DNA of 23,462 nucleotides from IMG/VR virus record IMGVR_UViG_2617270947_000006. The stretch is one strand, 5' to 3'. Position numbers and translations under genes: made by a program. Source of the DNA: a virus (lineage: Duplodnaviria > Heunggongvirae > Uroviricota > Caudoviricetes). The notes beneath the pieces are model-generated. The model was not told the DNA's origin. It saw only the letters and a list, made by a program, of their open reading frames with translations, and searched no databases. This document shows, in pieces, positions 4,765-15,166 of this stretch (the stretch's first letter is position 1; the number at the start of each line of letters is the position of its first letter).

Positions 4765-6097
4765 TAATCACCTCCACTGAATGGCCTCCGGGAATGAACA
4801 GCGGATCAACAATACCGTTACGGCGCACAAAACGTTGCCAGCCGGTACTGTTCCCGGTGGCACGGTACAGGGTCACCAGTGCAGGCTCGGTGGTACGTAC
4901 AGTCACTACTGTTGCACCGGGTAGCTGAACTCCCCGTGTATTCAGATCCTCTGTCAGTGCCAGTCTGGCATCACGAAGCGTCAGCGCCGTGGCGGTATAC
5001 CCCTGCCCGGACAGTGTCATCACCTGCCGTTCGAGCGCTTCGCTTAAGTCACGGTTAATGCGCTGAAGATCAACTGAACTTTCCAGCCAGACAGGCCAGG
5101 TACGGTGGGCTGCGTCACTGTCCGGCAGGGTTTCCTGACTGAGAACCTGATCCAGCAGTTTTCCCACGGTCTGTGCCTGGGCCACCACGGCAGCACTCTG
5201 CATTACCGCCCGTATCAGACGAATATTCTTTTGTGCTGCCGGTGTCAGACCGATGAGAGTCTGCGGATTATCCTGCTCATCCAGCACGTAACGCAGGGAA
5301 GATAATGTCCTGTACAGTTGCGGCATTCCCTGAGAGACGGCGGATGTCGTCCGGCCGATACTGCCTCCGGGCCGGGTATTCAGGCCTCCTGAAGACAGTG
5401 ACGGCAGCGATGGCAGGGTGATCAGGGCACTGAAAAGCCCCGCAAAAGATGAGGCCATGCGGGAAGGTGCTGTCAGTAATGCCGTGGCATTCCCTTTCAG
5501 CGCCGTGAACGTGGCAGTAAAGGCACTGATATCCTGTACAATCCCCATGCCGGAAACGGCATTTTCCAGGGCGGACACCTTATCGCTGATGGTTTCGGTC
5601 ATTGCCTGGACATCGTGCATTCCGTCAGAAATCACCGTCCAGCCCGCTTCCAGGGTTTCAAAAACCTTCCCGAGCGCGGTGGTACTCTTCTGCTCCAGAA
5701 TGGCGGCCGTGTCCTGTGTGACAGCAGGTGCGGTATCATCACTTACCGGCGTGACATTAATGGTGAACTCAACCACGCCCTGTTCAGCAGCGTTATAACG
5801 ACTTTCAAAGCTGTTTATCAGCACATTTAACGTGCCGTAATCCGGGTGAAGCAGCTCCCCGGCACCGGGAGCACGAAGGGCATCACGCAGACGATTTCGC
5901 TGTGTCTGAACATCATCCCCCATCACAAGTACACTGAACGTAAATTCAGCCAGTTTAGGTCCCAGATCGTCTGCACCACCGGTTTCCCGTAACGGATATT
6001 CCCGACGGACAATGTTTCGCCCGCCACGTTCGCGCTGCTCACGCCAGACGAGGAACGGCACACCACGGAACGCACCACGACCGTCACCAGAGGCCAT
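4748..6097 (-). CDS. Mu gpN-like DNA circularisation protein, 449 aa
   Basis: Start moved to ATG 6095-6097 (MASGDGRG...), which is preceded by GGAGGG 5 nt upstream; the track start at 6118 has no ribosome-binding site. Position directly after the tape measure gene. Confidence 0.8.
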   Translation of the reverse strand: MASGDGRGAFRGVPFLVWREQRERGGRNIVRREYPLRETGGADDLGPKLAEFTFSVLVMGDDVQTQRNRLRDALRAPGAGELLHPDYGTLNVLINSFESRYNAAEQGVVEFTINVTPVSDDTAPAVTQDTAAILEQKSTTALGKVFETLEAGWTVISDGMHDVQAMTETISDKVSALENAVSGMGIVQDISAFTATFTALKGNATALLTAPSRMASSFAGLFSALITLPSLPSLSSGGLNTRPGGSIGRTTSAVSQGMPQLYRTLSSLRYVLDEQDNPQTLIGLTPAAQKNIRLIRAVMQSAAVVAQAQTVGKLLDQVLSQETLPDSDAAHRTWPVWLESSVDLQRINRDLSEALERQVMTLSGQGYTATALTLRDARLALTEDLNTRGVQLPGATVVTVRTTEPALVTLYRATGNSTGWQRFVRRNGIVDPLFIPGGHSVEVISEQQG

Positions 6098-8159
6098 AAT
6101 TCCCTCCGTTCCAGACATTCACATCCAGTCCGTGACCGGACGTGTCATCAATATCAATACTGCGAGCCTGCCACCCTTCCGGGGCAACCAGCTCCACACG
6201 GGCAGAGGCTTTTTGTACCGCCTGTCCACTGCTTTCATCATCACTGCCCCGTAATTTCTGCCAGGCTTCAGTCAGCCATCCCCCCAGATAGTTACCGAGA
6301 TAGCTGCCCACCGTAGAACCAACGGCAATCCCCACAGGTCCGGCTGCCGCCCCCAGCGCACCACCGGCAATACTGCCTGCAAGAGAGCCGACCGCTTCTC
6401 CCTTGTCTGTGGCACTGGCGCTGCCATCCAGCAGAACCGGGGCTGCCATCGCGCCAGCCCACAGGGCACCTCCACCCAGCCGGCCGGCCAGTCCACCGGC
6501 ACTGCGGAAAAAGCCGGAGAAACGCCCCAGCCCCATGCGGCTACCGACAGACGAAAGTAACCCACCGGCGCGCCCCATCATGCGCCCCCAGAACCCTGCC
6601 CCACCAGAAGAGGGAGACGGTGGCACTGGGGACGGTGGCAGGGGAGGCGTGACCGGTCTTCCGCGCCCCGGTCCGCGTTTCCTGCGGCCCCGCCCCTGAC
6701 GTCCGCCTGAGGATGTATCGGTCGCGCCGGTGCCGGACAGTCCTCCTGTGGGCCAGTTTGTTACAAGTACTGGCTGAACGGCTGCCGGATTTACCCCGGT
6801 AAGAAAGTTTATAAAACGTTGCCCCCGTCCCTGAGATGTGCCTGGTGGTGTTCCGGCCGGAGGAGAGCGCCGGAAAGGTGAGGTCAGGAAGGCCGCCGCT
6901 GATAATCCGTATCCCAGCAATGCAGCACCCGGACGTATAATCCCCGTTCCGACAGCCCGCGCCATTTTCAGGGCACGGGTGGCGAGATACATGTACAGCA
7001 GGTATTTCGCGGCGGTCTGTGCCCCCTGACCAATGCGATCCAGCGCATCACCATAGCCCGCATCCCGCAGAGCCTGAAGCGTGTCGCGTACCTTTCTGAT
7101 CGCCTGATAAAACCCTGTCACTGCATCACGGGCATACTCAAAGCCCTGGTTCATGGCTGATGCCGTGCTTTCCGCCAGGGAATGGTAACTGCCATCAGAT
7201 TTGGCACTGTCAACCCATGAAAGAAATCCCCTGAGATTACCCTTCAGTTTTTCAAATGGCCCACTGTCCATCACATCCCGGGCAAACTGGTCCCAGACGT
7301 CACCCATCATGGCCGTCAGGCCACTCCAGGAATTCATTGCGTCCTTTTGTGCTCCCCTGGCCTGTTCCGCCAGCGTCTGAAATAACAGGCGAATACTGTC
7401 CGGCCCAAGCAGCCCTTTTTCACCAAGTTTTCTGACCACTTTCTGGTCCACACCCAGACGATCAGCCAGCACGCGGTAGGCATTAATGCCGTAGGTGGCA
7501 AGAATATTTGCATCCGCCGCCTGAATACTGCCTCTTGCATACATCTGTTTCAGTTGCAGGGATGCCCCCTGTGCATCGGACAGTGACCAGCCGCCCACGG
7601 CACCCTGATCCTGAAGCATGGTGACAAAATTTCGGGCCTCCCTGTCACTCATACCAAAGCCCAGACTGGACGTATATTCCTGCATGACGCCAGCCAGCCC
7701 CCAGGTGGTTTCCTTCGCATTCTGTATTGCCCACCTGCGGACATCATCAGTTTTCGCCCGATCCCCTTTGTAAAGGGAGTTCAGGCGAATCATATAGGTT
7801 TCCATCTCCGCTGCCGGGCGAATAAATCCCCGGTTAAAGCCATATACAGCAGCACCACCGGCCAGCATTCCGTAAAGATTGCTGATCCGCCCGATGGTGC
7901 CGGTAATACTGCCCTGAAGACGGTCAAAATCAGAAGTGACATGGCGGATACTGCCCCGCACCCCGGCCAGCGTGCGCTGCATCCTGCTTCCGAGTACATC
8001 TGTTTCCTGCCCGGCACGGCGGGCAGCATTTCCCAGGCCACCCAGCCCCGCCTGGCCGGAGCGTGAGAATGCCCCCAGCTCCTGTGACCACTGGCGGGAT
8101 TTGGCTGAGATATTGCCGAGCAAATCAACTATCAGAGATGCTCTGAGATTTCGGGCCAT
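6084..8159 (-). CDS. Tail tape measure protein (Mu gp42-like), 691 aa
   Basis: Largest tail gene, located after the tube and chaperone genes. Contains a Gly/Pro/Arg-rich low-complexity stretch (GRQGRGRRKRGPGRGRPVTPPLPPSPVPPSPSS) and Gly/Ala-rich segments typical of tape measure proteins. Confidence 0.85.
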   Translation of the reverse strand: MARNLRASLIVDLLGNISAKSRQWSQELGAFSRSGQAGLGGLGNAARRAGQETDVLGSRMQRTLAGVRGSIRHVTSDFDRLQGSITGTIGRISNLYGMLAGGAAVYGFNRGFIRPAAEMETYMIRLNSLYKGDRAKTDDVRRWAIQNAKETTWGLAGVMQEYTSSLGFGMSDREARNFVTMLQDQGAVGGWSLSDAQGASLQLKQMYARGSIQAADANILATYGINAYRVLADRLGVDQKVVRKLGEKGLLGPDSIRLLFQTLAEQARGAQKDAMNSWSGLTAMMGDVWDQFARDVMDSGPFEKLKGNLRGFLSWVDSAKSDGSYHSLAESTASAMNQGFEYARDAVTGFYQAIRKVRDTLQALRDAGYGDALDRIGQGAQTAAKYLLYMYLATRALKMARAVGTGIIRPGAALLGYGLSAAAFLTSPFRRSPPAGTPPGTSQGRGQRFINFLTGVNPAAVQPVLVTNWPTGGLSGTGATDTSSGGRQGRGRRKRGPGRGRPVTPPLPPSPVPPSPSSGGAGFWGRMMGRAGGLLSSVGSRMGLGRFSGFFRSAGGLAGRLGGGALWAGAMAAPVLLDGSASATDKGEAVGSLAGSIAGGALGAAAGPVGIAVGSTVGSYLGNYLGGWLTEAWQKLRGSDDESSGQAVQKASARVELVAPEGWQARSIDIDDTSGHGLDVNVWNGGNYGLW

Positions 8160-8161
8160 AC

Positions 8162-8344
8162 TTACTGCTTCGTTCTGATGATTTTTTCTGTCTGTCGGCA
8201 GTGCCGGTAAAGTTGCGACAGGGGGAGGTTAAGCGCCCATTCCGGACCGCTTTTTGTCACCATCCCCAGGATAATTGCCGCTTCTTCAATCTGATCCCGA
8301 CACTGCGCCTGATCGCCCCCGGTCAGCTGCCAGCTTTCCGGCAA
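8162..8344 (-). CDS. Possible frameshift-extension ORF of the tail assembly chaperone (no ATG start); hypothetical
   Basis: 60-codon open frame with no ATG (track start is TTG). It overlaps the 3' end of the chaperone gene in the +1 frame and ends 2 nt before the tape measure ATG. The arrangement resembles the chaperone/frameshift-product pairs upstream of tape measure genes in many tailed phages (for example P2 E/E'). Confidence 0.25.
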   Translation of the reverse strand: MPESWQLTGGDQAQCRDQIEEAAIILGMVTKSGPEWALNLPLSQLYRHCRQTEKIIRTKQ

Positions 8345-8762
8345 GCGCGGTATCCAGCAGGCTGACCGCTGCCATCAGGCGGGAGAGATCGCGCTCGCTT
8401 AACTGTCCAATCTGACGGGGTGACAACGGACCTTCAATGTCTCCCACTGCGGCAATCTGACGGCGCAGCAGTGCAACACCGCGTAACGACGGAGACGCTA
8501 TCAGCATCGGGCCATTGTTTGTCTCCACCACGCGCTCGGCTTCTGCTTCTGCGTCAATACTGTCTTTCGCTGTCAGTTCCCGGAACGTGACACGATATTC
8601 ACGGGTCTCACCAAACGGCAGACCATCAAGCAGATCCACATATCCCTTTGCCAGTTGCTCTGTCAGCCCGGCAGTGCGTGGATCAGCCCCCTCAAGTGCT
8701 TCCCGGATTGCCTCCATCACGACTGCCTCGGAAACTGCCGTTTTTTTCTTACGTGTGGTCAT
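8286..8762 (-). CDS. Tail assembly chaperone (Mu gp41-like), 158 aa
   Basis: Start placed at ATG 8760-8762 (MTTRKKK...) preceded by AGGAAAAATAAA; the track start is a GTG overlapping the tube stop. Position between tube and tape measure. Confidence 0.6.
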   Translation of the reverse strand: MTTRKKKTAVSEAVVMEAIREALEGADPRTAGLTEQLAKGYVDLLDGLPFGETREYRVTFRELTAKDSIDAEAEAERVVETNNGPMLIASPSLRGVALLRRQIAAVGDIEGPLSPRQIGQLSERDLSRLMAAVSLLDTALAGKLAADRGRSGAVSGSD

Positions 8763-8776
8763 TTTATTTTTCCTGA

Positions 8777-9142
8777 TCACTGAACACGGGTACTGGAGGC
8801 GCTGGCGAACTTCACGGAGATCTCCCCGCCACCGTCAAGCGAGGCCGGTTCACTGCTCCAGGCCTTCGTCATCATGTGGACTTCACCGGTATCGGCCACG
8901 AACTCAATCGTGACCGCAGTCCAGGTGTTGATTTCATCGGCAGCCGGTGAACCTTCTCCGCCAGCCGGAAATTTACAGTCCAGCGTCGCCTCACGGGGTT
9001 TCTCGCGATAGCCGTAGACTTTCGCGCCTTTCACCACTTCACGCTCAAAGCCGGACGGGGAGAACGTGGCTCCCTCAAGGGTGGCGTACTCCTGTCCGTT
9101 CACACGGATGGTGGCCGTGCCCTGATACTGTTTTCCGCTCAT
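8777..9142 (-). CDS. Tail tube protein (Mu gpM-like), 121 aa
   Basis: Small protein immediately downstream of the sheath gene; size matches the Mu tube protein. Confidence 0.8.
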   Translation of the reverse strand: MSGKQYQGTATIRVNGQEYATLEGATFSPSGFEREVVKGAKVYGYREKPREATLDCKFPAGGEGSPAADEINTWTAVTIEFVADTGEVHMMTKAWSSEPASLDGGGEISVKFASASSTRVQ

Positions 9143-9150
9143 GCCTTACC

Positions 9151-10653
9151 TCACAAAATGAAACGGATCTGCGCGGCCATGAAGCGGAACTGGTTAACCA
9201 GATCCGGTGTACACATCACATCCAGACGGTTACGGTCTTTTGTGTTGCGCTCCACGAGCAGATTCTTTTTAAAGGTGTCCAGATTTTCGACCAGTCCCAG
9301 CTCCACCCATTCTTCACCCAGCGAAATTAACTGAAGTTTCATGATCTCCGGCGTCACGATATTCTGACCTGCACGAACAGGCGTCCCGTCATCAGCCAGT
9401 TTATGGCGCGGAAAACGTTGCGTGATAAAGGTGCGCAGGGAATAACGCAGATATGACAGGGTGTAGATGGTTTCCACATCCAGATAGCTGGGATCGCTTT
9501 CGCCGTATGCATTCTGACGGTACATCGTCACCTGACGTTCAATCTGCACCATGTCAGCGGCCGCGACGGTCACCGTGGACATGCCGGTATAAAGCAGGCT
9601 GTTTCGCTCTTCCCGCGTCAGACGAGCTGGTGCTTCAGGTGCCATACGGGCAGGCAGCGCCAGTGTCTGTAATGGTCGGGCCGGATCCGTTGACAGGGAG
9701 GGCGCACAGACCGCACAAATGGAGGCCGCCCAGACATAATCCGGCTCTGGTGCTTTAGGAATAGAAGTGCAGGTAAACAGGAAGTCATTACGGGATTCAC
9801 CAAAACTGGTTGCCGTACCGAAGGTGCCGGTATGCGCCATCCAGACCATACCGTCCGACATTTTTACCGGTCCCCAGCGTTTCAGCAGTTCATCCGCCAG
9901 AATTTTGAGATTTGCCGCATCCTTATAGGGCATGACGATGTAGTTGTACTGACGATTCCCCATCCCTGAGACGCTACGGGTGATATCGGGGTTTGTTGCC
10001 TTCTGTGTTGGCGCGACGAGCTCCAGCGTAAGACCGGCCGGTGTAGTTTCACCGTCATAATAGTTCACCCGTAAATCATGAGCTGAGCATTCACCGATAA
10101 AGCGGGCGTTAACCCCCATGCTGCCTTTAAGTCCTTCAGCATTATCACCACTGACTTCAGCTGCGATAGCAGTGAATGGCGCATCAGTGTCAGCGTTAAT
10201 GACCTTAGCCAGCTCTTCCACAAGCTCTTTACCTTTTTTCCCCTTACTGACGGGCAGGAGGTAACGGCGACCGCCGATGTAAACACTTAACACCCCGTCT
10301 GCCAATGCTGTTCCAATGATATTCATCACGCATGCCCTGGACTGACCTGTTCCAGCCCCCTGTGCAATGGCATATAACTCTGTGTCAGGGTTAATGGCGA
10401 TAAATTCCTCTACCATCAGTGCAATCATGGAACCTCGCCCCCAGAGTTCTCTTGCTTGTGAAGCTCGGGTAATACGTACTGGTACATCAAGCTGACCGCG
10501 CCCCTGAATGGTGGTGTCTTTCATTGCAGCCTGACCAAACAACAGTACCGCCTGACGCTGTGGTGGAGTGCCGGTCACGGCCATTGAATTATTGATTTCA
10601 ATCTGTACCAGCGGAATGCGATTGTTATCGCCGATATAATCAAAGTTAATCAT
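9151..10653 (-). CDS. Contractile tail sheath protein (Mu gpL-like), 500 aa
   Basis: About 500 aa, immediately upstream of the tube gene in the canonical sheath-tube-chaperone-tape measure block. Confidence 0.9.
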   Translation of the reverse strand: MINFDYIGDNNRIPLVQIEINNSMAVTGTPPQRQAVLLFGQAAMKDTTIQGRGQLDVPVRITRASQARELWGRGSMIALMVEEFIAINPDTELYAIAQGAGTGQSRACVMNIIGTALADGVLSVYIGGRRYLLPVSKGKKGKELVEELAKVINADTDAPFTAIAAEVSGDNAEGLKGSMGVNARFIGECSAHDLRVNYYDGETTPAGLTLELVAPTQKATNPDITRSVSGMGNRQYNYIVMPYKDAANLKILADELLKRWGPVKMSDGMVWMAHTGTFGTATSFGESRNDFLFTCTSIPKAPEPDYVWAASICAVCAPSLSTDPARPLQTLALPARMAPEAPARLTREERNSLLYTGMSTVTVAAADMVQIERQVTMYRQNAYGESDPSYLDVETIYTLSYLRYSLRTFITQRFPRHKLADDGTPVRAGQNIVTPEIMKLQLISLGEEWVELGLVENLDTFKKNLLVERNTKDRNRLDVMCTPDLVNQFRFMAAQIRFIL

Positions 10654-15045: not shown

Positions 15046-15166
15046 ATTGCCTCCGCATAAAGGATGAATATAAAATAAACAGGCGGTCAGTGTACGCTTA
15101 ACTGGTAAAGTCGGTGCCTGCCTCCGGGTGGATCATGTATGCGGGTTCGCCCCCCGCCACTGACCG

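What the first reader, a model, noticed from the sequence alone, without database searches (positions are those of the whole stretch)
8162..8762. Possible programmed translational frameshift joining the tail chaperone to a 60-codon extension upstream of the tape measure gene
A 60-codon open frame with no ATG overlaps the last ~20 codons of the gp41-like chaperone gene in the +1 frame and ends 2 nt before the tape measure start. This is the classic geometry of chaperone/frameshift-product pairs of tailed phages. The overlap (8286-8344) contains rare arginine codons in the zero frame (CGG, CGA within GAC CGG GGG CGA UCA), which could promote a +1 slip. No canonical -1 slippery heptamer was seen, so the mechanism would be unusual.
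Basis: inference. Interest (0 to 1): 0.5.

Follow-up and report, generated by a model that had tools for sequence, protein, structure and literature searches.

The report
Mu-type −2 tail-chaperone frameshift signal
This is the tail-assembly chaperone gene of a Mu-like prophage of E. coli; it carries the same rare two-bases-back ribosomal frameshift signal already proven in phage Mu, so the finding is real but the mechanism is known, and the only possibly new detail is a conserved RNA hairpin just downstream.

Summary
On the minus strand, a gp41-like chaperone gene (8762-8286) is overlapped by a second frame (+1, equivalent to −2) that stays open to 8162, 2 nt before the tape-measure ATG.

The site GAC CGG GGG CGA contains GG GGG CGA (8320-8313). 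This is the same octamer, at the same position, as in phage Mu gp41, where a −2 tandem slip was verified experimentally (Xu 2004; about 2 %).

- **Extension:** it is homologous to Mu's and under purifying selection (dN/dS about 0.05-0.2).
- **Slip site:** G_GGG_CGA is in phase in about 178 of 182 related sequences, the only invariant block in the first 29 representatives.
- **Predicted product:** a 200-aa fusion that RefSeq does not annotate.

One addition goes beyond the finding. A 10-bp helix (8306-8297 with 8207-8198) starts exactly 6 nt after CGA and closes a 109-nt hairpin. A helix starts at that same spacing in divergent clades with unrelated sequences, and the region folds better than synonymous recodings. 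It is probably the frameshift stimulator. I found no description of it in the literature I could reach or in Rfam.

Verdict: a new member of a known kind, of modest interest.

The parts
8286..8762 (-). Tail assembly chaperone gene, 0 frame (158 aa plus stop). It is the gp41 homologue and the major product.
   Evidence: ORF and translation. Pfam PF23746 Gp41_Mu, E = 4.9e-31. PHROG 508 tail assembly chaperone, E = 1.2e-46. 49 % identity to Mu gp41 by tblastn. The exact protein is annotated as 'phage tail assembly protein' in E. coli.
8313..8320 (-). Slippery octamer GG GGG CGA. The codons are CGG 8321-8319, GGG 8318-8316 and CGA 8315-8313.
   Evidence: Identical octamer at the same phase and position as in Mu. 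Described as the Mu −2 tandem slip site in PMC3458567. The core G_GGG_CGA was found in phase in 100 of the first 102 sequences (the window plus 101 loci) and 78 of 80 further loci.
8307..8312 (-). 6-nt spacer (UCAGGC) between the A-site codon CGA and the downstream helix.
   Evidence: Mean pairing probability is 0.36-0.58 at positions +1 to +6 and jumps to 0.85-0.96 at +7 to +16, in 29 representatives. A second set of 36 representatives shows the same jump at +7.
8297..8306 (-). 5' arm of the closing helix, GCAGUGUCGG (extension codons ..Q-C-R).
   Evidence: Pairs with 8207-8198. Pair probabilities are 0.83-1.0, and the helix is in the MFE and centroid structures. 99.8 % of cells are paired across 40 enterobacterial sequences, and 2 pairs show compensatory changes.
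8198..8207 (-). 3' arm of the closing helix, CCGGCACUGC (extension codons R-H-C).
   Evidence: Same evidence as the 5' arm. Arg in ..CR is always CGG and Cys in RHC always TGC despite synonymous alternatives; His in RHC is CAC in 39 of 40.
8198..8306 (-). Whole 109-nt irregular hairpin. Its apex lies at the G-P-E-W-A codons. It is the inferred 3' frameshift stimulator.
   Evidence: MFE −45 kcal/mol, z = −2.18 against dinucleotide shuffles, 3 of 200 shuffles as good. The Mu equivalent has z = −3.98, 0 of 200. Against synonymous recodings the window has z = −2.37, p = 0.013. The family mean z is −1.6 to −2.2, against −0.05 for an upstream control.
8162..8314 (-). Extension read after the −2 shift: GAU at 8314-8312 through to TAA at 8164-8162, 50 codons. 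The fusion product M1-R150 plus D151-Q200 is 200 aa.
   Evidence: Translation. Homologous to the Mu FS-gp41 extension, sharing KSGPEWAL.LPLS..RHC. PHROG 12783, E = 1.3e-36. dN/dS is 0.05-0.08 against the three closest relatives compared, and about 1 or above in the other frames wherever dS was measurable.
6084..8159 (-). Tape measure protein gene (691 aa). It starts 2 nt after the extension stop.
   Evidence: Pfam PF20155 TMP_3, E = 1.9e-18. ORF list.
8777..9142 (-). Tail tube gene immediately upstream (context).
   Evidence: Pfam PF10618 Tail_tube, E = 8e-31.
9151..10653 (-). Tail sheath gene (context).
   Evidence: Pfam Phage_sheath_1 and Phage_sheath_1C.

Best explanation
The region is the sheath, tube, chaperone and tape-measure block of a Mu-like prophage of E. 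coli.

Most ribosomes translate the chaperone gene to its stop at 8286 and make the 158-aa gp41-like chaperone. A small fraction slip two bases backwards when GGG (8318-8316) is in the P site and CGA (8315-8313) is in the A site. In Mu that fraction is about 2 %.

In the slip, tRNA-Gly re-pairs with GGG at 8320-8318 and tRNA-Arg (ICG) re-pairs with GGC at 8317-8315. Translation then continues with GAU at 8314 in the overlapping frame, up to TAA at 8164-8162. The result is a 200-aa fusion (..AADRGR|DQAQCRDQIEE..) whose extra 50-residue C-terminal domain corresponds to the T part of lambda gpGT. By analogy with lambda G/GT, the two products together chaperone the tape-measure protein and recruit tube subunits during tail assembly, and neither ends up in the virion.

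The slip is most likely stimulated by a stable hairpin whose 10-bp closing helix begins 6 nt after CGA. That places it at the ribosome's mRNA entrance when the slippery codons occupy the P and A sites.

Basis of each step:
- Shown here: anatomy, homology, conservation of the site and frame, purifying selection, and conserved placement of the helix.
- Taken from the literature on Mu: the −2 direction, tandem slippage and efficiency.
- Inferred: that this prophage behaves like Mu, and that the hairpin is the stimulator.
For: 1. Gene order and family. Sheath, tube, gp41-like chaperone (PF23746, 4.9e-31) and TMP.
2. Identical octamer. It sits in the same phase and position as in Mu. The Mu CDS Mu_56 is annotated 'verified -2 translational frameshift in PMID 15469818'. 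The literature agrees: PMC5009743; PMC3498833, about 2.2 %; PMC3458567, tandem −2 on GG GGG CGA.
3. Mu junction recovered. My −2 reading of Mu reproduces UniProt P0DJY4 FS-gp41 exactly.
4. Extension conserved. It is homologous across enterobacterial, Vibrio, Shewanella, Alteromonas and Pasteurella relatives and matches PHROG 12783.
5. Purifying selection. For window vs L004, dN is 0.022 and dS 0.416. For window vs L034 they are 0.029 and 0.553. For window vs L006 they are 0.084 and 1.089. The median dN/dS over 58 pairs is 0.20 in the extension frame and 2.28 in one alternative frame; the summary for the other alternative frame was undefined.
6. Site conservation. G_GGG_CGA is the only invariant block within −30 to +45 nt among 29 representatives below 90 % identity. 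This includes sites that are synonymous in the 0 frame: the G before GGG, the third G of GGG, and C-to-A in CGA/AGA. It is in phase in 78 of 80 further loci.
7. No usable start. In several lineages the second frame opens only 2-3 codons before the site and has no start codon there, which excludes independent initiation.
8. Hairpin. Pairing probability rises to 0.85-0.96 at +7 to +16 in the first set of representatives and to 0.82-0.99 at +7 to +13 in the second, against about 0.55 in controls (Mann-Whitney p = 3e-12 and 6e-16). Helix sequences are unrelated between clades. The 6-nt spacer matches the optimum reported for stem-loop-stimulated −2 shifting (PMC3458567).
Against: - No experiment exists on this prophage. 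Direction and efficiency are carried over from Mu, whose chaperone is only 49 % identical.
- Public annotations of Mu itself disagree on the junction residue. UniProt has ..ERGG|EW.. and GenBank UIW09302.1 has ..ERGR|EW... Sequence alone therefore does not settle tandem slippage against P-site-only slippage.
- Some clades have AAG, UCG or AGG before GGG CGA, where −2 re-pairing of tRNA-Gly would have a first-position mismatch. Two loci have CGG GGG GAG instead.
- For the window alone the hairpin statistics are moderate: z = −2.18, and the synonymous-permutation test gives p = 0.077.
- Seven of the ten closing pairs never vary within the enterobacterial clade, so covariation there is thin.
- A control region in the TMP gene also shows mild excess structure, mean z = −0.8.
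- I could not read Xu 2004 or Baranov 2006, so I cannot say whether the hairpin has been described before.
Confidence: 0.85

Rival explanations
1. +1 ribosomal frameshift. With GGG in the P site, the ribosome stalls on the rare A-site codon CGA. tRNA-Gly then slips one base forward onto GGC and reading resumes at GAU. This gives a 199-aa fusion with one residue fewer (..DRG|DQAQ..).
For: It reaches the same frame. CGA is rare here, at 5 % of Arg codons, and is invariant at the site. In clades with AAG or UCG before GGG, the −2 re-pairing is imperfect.
Against: The Mu homologue is recorded as a verified −2 shift. The G preceding GGG is a synonymous third position in the 0 frame, yet it is invariant in every slip site recovered here. 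A +1 slip does not need that G. A structure 6 nt downstream is typical of backward shifts, not forward ones (PMC3458567).
Confidence: 0.06
2. Transcriptional slippage on the G5 run. RNA polymerase adds two Gs or drops one G in a fraction of transcripts, and standard translation of the edited mRNA then gives the fusion.
For: A homopolymer is present. Genomic variants with one G fewer are directly in frame (L052; P0112 and P0118). This shows that a 1-nt change in the run suffices to fuse the frames.
Against: The run is only 5 G, and only 4 G in the AAG and UCG clades. From general knowledge, that is much shorter than the A/T runs known to give productive slippage. It also would not explain the invariance of CGA or the precisely spaced downstream helix.
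Confidence: 0.03
3. The downstream frame is an independent small gene. It would be started at TTG 8344 or at the internal ATG 8263, as gene callers have sometimes annotated it (D108 gp41.5; PHROG 12783).
For: D108 carries a separate CDS '41.5'. A PHROG family of about 54-aa proteins matches the extension.
Against: No start codon is conserved. In Mu, the Erwinia and Citrobacter relatives (L009, L010) and Shewanella relatives, the frame opens only 2-3 codons before the slip site and has no ATG, GTG or TTG there. The window's ATG 8263 corresponds to Val or Ile in relatives. The conserved peptide begins right at the slip site.
Confidence: 0.03
4. The hairpin is real but serves another purpose, such as mRNA stability or control of tape-measure translation. 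The slip would then need only the octamer.
For: The structure spans most of the extension and ends about 38 nt before the TMP start. A TMP control region also shows some excess structure.
Against: Its 5' edge is fixed at +7 from CGA in clades whose helix sequences and 3' partners differ. That pattern is expected for a frameshift stimulator and not for a stability element.
Confidence: 0.2

Closest known systems
Phage Mu gp41 / FS-gp41 (Mup41, Mu_56; UniProt P0DJY4): −2 programmed frameshift, Xu, Hendrix & Duda 2004
   Same: Same Pfam family. Same gene position between tube and tape measure. Identical GG GGG CGA octamer in the same phase near the 3' end. A homologous extension of about 50 aa that ends just before the tape-measure gene. 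The same closing helix (GCGGUGCCGG / CCGGCACUGC in Mu) after a 6-nt spacer.
   Different: The chaperone is only 49 % identical and has an N-terminal segment of about 30 aa with no counterpart in Mu. The 0-frame tail after the site is 2 codons longer. The inner helices of the hairpin differ. There is no experimental evidence for this prophage, and RefSeq does not annotate its fusion product.
Lambda gpG / gpGT and P2 gpE / gpE+E' tail assembly chaperones (−1 frameshift)
   Same: Same genomic position, same two-product logic (abundant short form, rare extended form) and the same presumed role with the tape-measure protein (PMC5009743; PF10109 weak hit).
   Different: Those use a −1 slip on an X_XXY_YYZ-type heptamer. 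Here the target frame is −2/+1 and no −1 heptamer is present.
Arterivirus nsp2TF and Trichomonas vaginalis virus 1: the other documented −2 frameshifts
   Same: A backward shift by two bases reaching the +1 frame (PMC5009743).
   Different: These are eukaryotic ribosomes with different slip sites (G_GUU_UUU; CC_CUU_UUU). The arterivirus stimulator is a protein bound to a C-rich motif, not a hairpin.
E. coli dnaX and IS911-type −1 signals, and engineered U6A plus stem-loop signals
   Same: A slippery site followed by a short spacer and a stable stem-loop. −2 shifting on U6A peaks at 6-7 nt spacers (PMC3458567), matching the 6 nt seen here.
   Different: A different slip sequence and direction. 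The hairpin here is long (about 60-110 nt), irregular and lies entirely in coding sequence.

Membership tests
Mu-type −2 frameshifted tail assembly chaperone (gp41 / FS-gp41) | The 0-frame protein belongs to the gp41 family. | tested here: met
   PF23746 Gp41_Mu, 107 bits against a cut-off of 27. PHROG 508. tblastn to Mu, D108 and SfMu, 49-51 % identity.
Mu-type −2 frameshifted tail assembly chaperone (gp41 / FS-gp41) | The gene lies between the tail tube gene and the tape-measure gene. | tested here: met
   Tube 8777-9142, chaperone 8286-8762, TMP 6084-8159.
Mu-type −2 frameshifted tail assembly chaperone (gp41 / FS-gp41) | [quoted passage not shown] | tested here: met
   8320-8313, with GGG and CGA as 0-frame codons, 8 codons before the stop. 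The site is as given in PMC3458567.
Mu-type −2 frameshifted tail assembly chaperone (gp41 / FS-gp41) | An overlapping −2/+1 frame is open from the site to just before the tape-measure gene, and it encodes a conserved extension. | tested here: met
   50 codons, with the stop 2 nt before the TMP ATG. Alignment with the Mu extension. PHROG 12783. dN/dS well below 1.
Mu-type −2 frameshifted tail assembly chaperone (gp41 / FS-gp41) | The fusion protein is actually made, and the shift is −2 (one residue more than a +1 shift would give). | not testable with these tools
   Shown only for Mu (annotation note). This needs mass spectrometry or a reporter assay.
G/GT-type −1 frameshifted chaperones (lambda, P2 and most tailed phages) | A −1 slippery heptamer X_XXY_YYZ with the extension in the −1 frame. 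| tested here: not met
   The −1 frame at the site closes after 21 codons and is not conserved. The extension is in the +1/−2 frame. The element works like this family but uses a different shift.
+1 'hungry codon' frameshift sites (prfB / Ty1 type) | A slow or rare A-site codon, plus a P-site tRNA able to re-pair one base forward. No upstream base is required. | tested here: inconclusive
   CGA is rare and invariant, and GGG to GGC re-pairing is possible. But the preceding G is invariant as well, and the Mu precedent is −2.
Frameshift signals with a 3' RNA stimulator | A stable helix begins 5-9 nt after the slippery codons, is conserved in position, and is supported by covariation. | tested here: met
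   6-nt spacer. Pairing probability is 0.85-0.96 at +7 to +16 in the first set and 0.82-0.99 at +7 to +13 in the second, against about 0.55 in controls. The region is more stable than synonymous recodings. Two compensatory pairs occur in the enterobacterial clade, and helices are unrelated in other clades. The functional effect on shifting was not tested.

The most novel reading that the evidence does not exclude
The Mu-family −2 frameshift signal may be tripartite: G_GGG_CGA, a fixed 6-nt spacer, and a long stem-loop. The stem-loop would be maintained by selection across Enterobacteriaceae, Vibrio, Shewanella, Alteromonas and Pasteurella phages with unrelated helix sequences, and it appears not to have been described. 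It is not in Rfam, and I found nothing on it in the literature I could reach. If so, it would be a natural bacterial test of the 'mRNA tension' model, in which short spacers favour −2 over −1 shifting. Natural slip-site variants (AAG/UCG/AGG GGG CGA and CGG GGG GAG) provide ready-made mutants.
Probability: 0.4. Interest if true: 0.5.

Novelty: new member of a known kind. Interest (0 to 1): 0.3.

Why it matters
**Annotation.** This prophage is at least 99 % identical over the 701-bp region searched (8100-8800) in about 195 of 5,426 complete E. coli genomes, many of them O26 or O103 STEC strains. RefSeq shows a 126-nt 'gap' where the essential second chaperone product is encoded. The same is true of most relatives. 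PHROGs files the extension as a separate protein of unknown function.

**Recoding biology.** Natural −2 frameshifts are very rare: Mu, arteriviruses and one totivirus. The comparative picture obtained here is an invariant heptamer, tolerated variation in the preceding codon, an exact 6-nt spacer and a positionally conserved hairpin. It gives a concrete, testable definition of the bacterial −2 signal. It could also improve frameshift predictors, which currently treat such cases as +1.

Tried and rejected
- **Truncated fold.** The first fold, of 8222-8335, gave no significant structure (z = +0.74). That window cut off the 3' arm. Folding 8192-8312 recovered the hairpin.
- **Genome-contig scan.** A scan with the single fusion protein found no relatives. 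I used the look-up of encoding contigs, phage records and two alignment-based scans of viral contigs instead.
- **DNA search against phages.** It reached only two Stx-phage records carrying an inserted Mu-like element, at 83.5 % identity. Mu itself is reachable only at protein level.
- **Primary papers.** Xu 2004 could not be read. A full-text search for the octamer found only Lin 2012 as relevant.
- **Octamer count.** It is not significant on its own.
- **Rfam and NCBIfam.** Neither gave a match.
- **RNAalifold.** On the enterobacterial alignment it kept only the closing and apical helices. On the Vibrio/Shewanella set it kept almost nothing. The reason is that 3' partners sit in different alignment columns in different sub-clades. 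I therefore used per-sequence pairing-probability profiles with internal controls.
- **dN/dS anchoring error.** One sequence (L008) was anchored at the wrong GGGGCGA, so its pairs are noise.
- **Explanations rejected.** Independent initiation of the small ORF, transcriptional slippage and a chance ORF; see the rival explanations.
Full report
**What is there.** All relevant genes are on the minus strand, in this order:
- tail sheath, 9151-10653;
- tail tube, 8777-9142;
- a 158-aa gene from ATG 8762 to the stop at 8288-8286;
- a 691-aa tape-measure gene starting at ATG 8159.

The 158-aa protein belongs to Pfam PF23746 (Gp41_Mu, E = 4.9e-31) and PHROG 508, 'tail assembly chaperone'. A second frame, one base 3' of the chaperone frame, is open from 8374 to TAA 8164-8162. 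That is 70 codons stop-to-stop, or 60 from the TTG at 8344. It ends 2 nt before the tape-measure ATG. The one exception is an internal ATG at 8263-8261.

**Where it comes from.** The 701-bp region is at least 99 % identical in about 195 of 5,426 complete E. coli genomes, many of them O26 or O103 STEC strains. The chaperone protein is identical to E. coli entries named 'phage tail assembly protein'. RefSeq annotates the chaperone, then a 126-nt gap, then the tape-measure gene, with no fusion product. Neither the −2 nor the +1 fusion sequence exists in the 15-billion-protein collection. The nearest phage records at DNA level are Mu-like elements inserted in Stx phages, at 83.5 %. Mu, D108 and SfMu are 49-51 % identical at protein level.

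**The known precedent.** Mu's CDS Mu_56 is annotated 'verified -2 translational frameshift in PMID 15469818; tail assembly chaperone frameshift product'. Three papers agree:
- Atkins et al. 2016 list Mu among the few users of −2 frameshifting (PMC5009743).
- Firth et al. 2012 call it the only known natural programmed −2 case as of 2012, with an efficiency of about 2.2 % (PMC3498833).
- Lin et al. 2012 describe it as tandem −2 slippage on GG GGG CGA, with A-site tRNA-Arg (anticodon 3'-GCI-5') re-pairing better in the −2 frame than in the −1 frame (PMC3458567).

Mu reads ..GAA CGG GGG CGA GUG.. and the window reads ..GAC CGG GGG CGA UCA... The octamer is identical and in the same phase, a few codons before the 0-frame stop. 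My −2 reading of Mu reproduces UniProt P0DJY4 (FS-gp41, 188 aa) exactly, whereas a +1 reading (187 aa) is not on record. GenBank's version differs at the junction residue..ERGR|EW.. against UniProt's ..ERGG|EW... These correspond to the tandem and P-site-only versions of a −2 slip.

**Conservation of the frame.** I collected 182 related loci from phage records, assemblies and IMG/VR; the conservation counts below use the window plus the first 181 of them.

In every complete locus the +1/−2 frame stays open for about 30-48 codons beyond the chaperone stop and ends at or close to the tape-measure start; in the non-enteric clades the gap is about 10-20 nt or a short overlap. The −1 frame does not. 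The extension peptides align from the slip site onward (GG[DE]....KSGPEWAL.LPLS..RHC in enterobacterial phages), and they remain recognisable in the Pasteurella, Alteromonas and Vibrio clades.

In the non-overlapping part of the extension:
- window vs L004: dN 0.022, dS 0.416;
- window vs L034: dN 0.029, dS 0.553;
- window vs L006: dN 0.084, dS 1.089;
- median dN/dS over 58 pairs: 0.20 in the extension frame and 2.28 in one alternative frame; the summary for the other alternative frame was undefined, and the window's own pairs give about 1 or more there.

One mis-anchored sequence, L008, adds noise to these medians.

In Mu, the Erwinia and Citrobacter relatives (L009, L010) and Shewanella relatives, the frame opens only 2-3 codons before the site and has no start codon there. 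This rules out a conserved independent gene, even though D108 '41.5' and PHROG 12783 treat it as one.

**Conservation of the site.** G_GGG_CGA is in phase in 100 of the first 102 sequences. The two exceptions are a truncated locus and one with a G run shorter by one base. It is also in phase in 78 of 80 further loci. Among 29 representatives below 90 % identity, it is the only invariant block from −30 to +45 nt.

Several of the invariant bases are synonymous in the chaperone frame:
- the G that ends the preceding codon (CGG, AGG, AAG or UCG);
- the third G of GGG;
- the A of CGA.

C-to-A in CGA would be synonymous in both frames. The constraint therefore acts on the nucleotides themselves. A −2 re-pairing of tRNA-Gly needs the invariant upstream G. 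A +1 slip does not.

**A conserved downstream structure.** This part goes beyond the finding I was given.
- *Position.* Six nucleotides after CGA, GCAGUGUCGG (8306-8297) pairs with CCGGCACUGC (8207-8198). The helix closes a 109-nt irregular hairpin whose apex lies at the G-P-E-W-A codons.
- *Stability.* It is the MFE and centroid structure, with pair probabilities of 0.83-1.0. For the window, z = −2.18 and 3 of 200 dinucleotide shuffles fold as well. For Mu, z = −3.98 and none do.
- *Enterobacterial clade.* In 40 sequences, 99.8 % of cells in the 10-bp helix are paired. Two pairs change on both sides. One runs C-G / U-G / U-A and is never C-A. The other is G-C to A-U in L054, where both amino acids change (Cys to Tyr and His to Tyr). 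None of 500 shuffles reach these values.
- *Synonymous recoding.* Against recodings that keep the protein, the region is more stable in 28 of 29 representatives under the permutation null. Mean z is −1.6 by permutation and −2.2 by resampling. The window has z = −2.37, p = 0.013 by resampling, and z = −1.35, p = 0.077 by permutation. An upstream control of equal length gives mean z = −0.05, and a TMP control gives −0.8.
- *Position-specific pairing.* This is the most telling test. I folded only what lies 3' of the A-site codon. Mean pairing probability is 0.36-0.58 at +1 to +6 and 0.85-0.96 at +7 to +16. Control positions are flat at about 0.55. 23 of 29 representatives are at or above 0.8, against 17 % of controls (Mann-Whitney p = 3e-12).
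- *Replication.* An independent set of 36 representatives from non-enteric clades gives the same step at +7. 29 of 36 are at or above 0.8, against 15 % of controls (p = 6e-16). Their helix sequences are unrelated, for example GGCGCUAGC, ACUGAUGG, GGGGAUGGG, UCAGCUGG and AAUCACUUGC.

A 6-nt spacer is the optimum reported for stem-loop-driven −2 shifting on U6A (PMC3458567). I infer that the hairpin is the stimulator. No Rfam family matches the region, and I found no mention of the hairpin in the papers I could read. I could not read Xu 2004.

**Mechanism proposed.** With GGG in the P site and CGA in the A site, the helix sits at the mRNA entrance. Both tRNAs then slip back two bases, GGG onto GGG and CGA onto GGC. 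Reading resumes at GAU 8314. The product is a 200-aa protein..LAADRGR|DQAQCRDQIEEAAIILGMVTKSGPEWALNLPLSQLYRHCRQTEKIIRTKQ. If only the P-site tRNA slips, the junction reads ..RGG|DQ.. instead. By analogy with lambda G/GT (PMC5009743), the short and long forms coat the tape-measure protein and recruit tube subunits.

Homology, anatomy and selection are shown here. The direction and efficiency of the shift are taken from Mu. The role of the hairpin is inferred.

**Rivals.**
- A +1 'hungry codon' shift reaches the same frame, and CGA is rare at 5 % of Arg codons. It does not explain the invariant upstream G or the downstream helix, and it contradicts the Mu data.
- Transcriptional slippage is unlikely on a run of 4-5 G, and it does not explain the invariance of CGA.
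- An independent small gene lacks any conserved start codon.

**Verdict.** This is an unannotated member of the known Mu-type −2 chaperone frameshift family. Its interest is modest. The exception is the family-wide spacer-plus-hairpin architecture and the natural slip-site variants, which may be new and are easy to test.

Noticed in passing
L006, L008, L011, L043-L049, L053 (AAG GGG CGA); L069, L083, L084 (UCG GGG CGA); L018 and 7 loci of L103-L182 (AGG GGG CGA): There are natural variants of the codon before GGG CGA. The Salmonella, Serratia and K. oxytoca clades have AAG, and some loci have UCG. In both, a −2 re-pairing of tRNA-Gly would mismatch at the first position. The third-position G is always kept.
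   Followed up: partly
L143 and L149, last 20 nt of the chaperone ORF: These two IMG/VR relatives lack CGA. They read CAG/CAA CGG GGG GAG (a run of six G) followed by a 44-codon +1/−2 extension. This is a different slip site in the same gene family.
   Followed up: no
L052 about 1547-1640; proteins P0112 and P0118: Some assemblies have one G fewer in the run (GAC CGG GGC GAG). This fuses the chaperone and extension directly in frame (..RGEW.., 187 aa). L052 has a second 1-nt loss further on. These are either homopolymer sequencing errors or decayed prophages.
   Followed up: partly
window 10435-10442, minus strand (sheath gene): A second in-phase GG GGG CGA octamer (codons UGG GGG CGA, W-G-R) lies in the tail sheath gene. 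By hand translation (the scripted −2 read-out was mis-anchored), a −2 shift there would stop after 3 codons (GAG GUU CCA UGA). The predicted downstream pairing starts at +2, not +7. A third copy at 15147-15154 lies between ORFs.
   Followed up: partly
Mu records: UniProt P0DJY4 and GenBank UIW09302.1 (P0111, P0116): The two public sequences of the Mu frameshift product differ at the junction residue (..ERGG|EW.. against ..ERGR|EW..). They reflect the P-site-only and tandem versions of the −2 slip.
   Followed up: partly
L102 (NZ_AP018808.1, E. coli E2865) and the equivalent window positions 8162-8285: RefSeq/PGAP leaves a 126-nt unannotated gap where the extension lies. The locus tags skip a number (RS12980 to RS12990). 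In that strain the neighbouring sheath gene is flagged as a frameshifted pseudogene.
   Followed up: no
L002 1371-1517 (phage D108 gene 41.5); PHROG 12783: The extension has been annotated as a free-standing small gene. In D108 it is given a start at what is a CUG codon. In PHROGs it is filed as a family of unknown function.
   Followed up: partly
window about 7980-8100 and the equivalent in relatives (start of the tape-measure gene): A 39-codon control region, starting about 20 codons after the extension stop, is also somewhat more structured than its synonymous permutations. The mean z is −0.8 over 29 representatives, and the window has z = −2.2. This is unexplained.
   Followed up: no
window 8155-8175, minus strand: The tape-measure ATG (8159) follows the extension stop by 2 nt, and I saw no obvious Shine-Dalgarno sequence in ..ACGAAGCAGUAAGUAUG... 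Mu has AGGA upstream. Whether initiation here is coupled or otherwise unusual was not examined.
   Followed up: no
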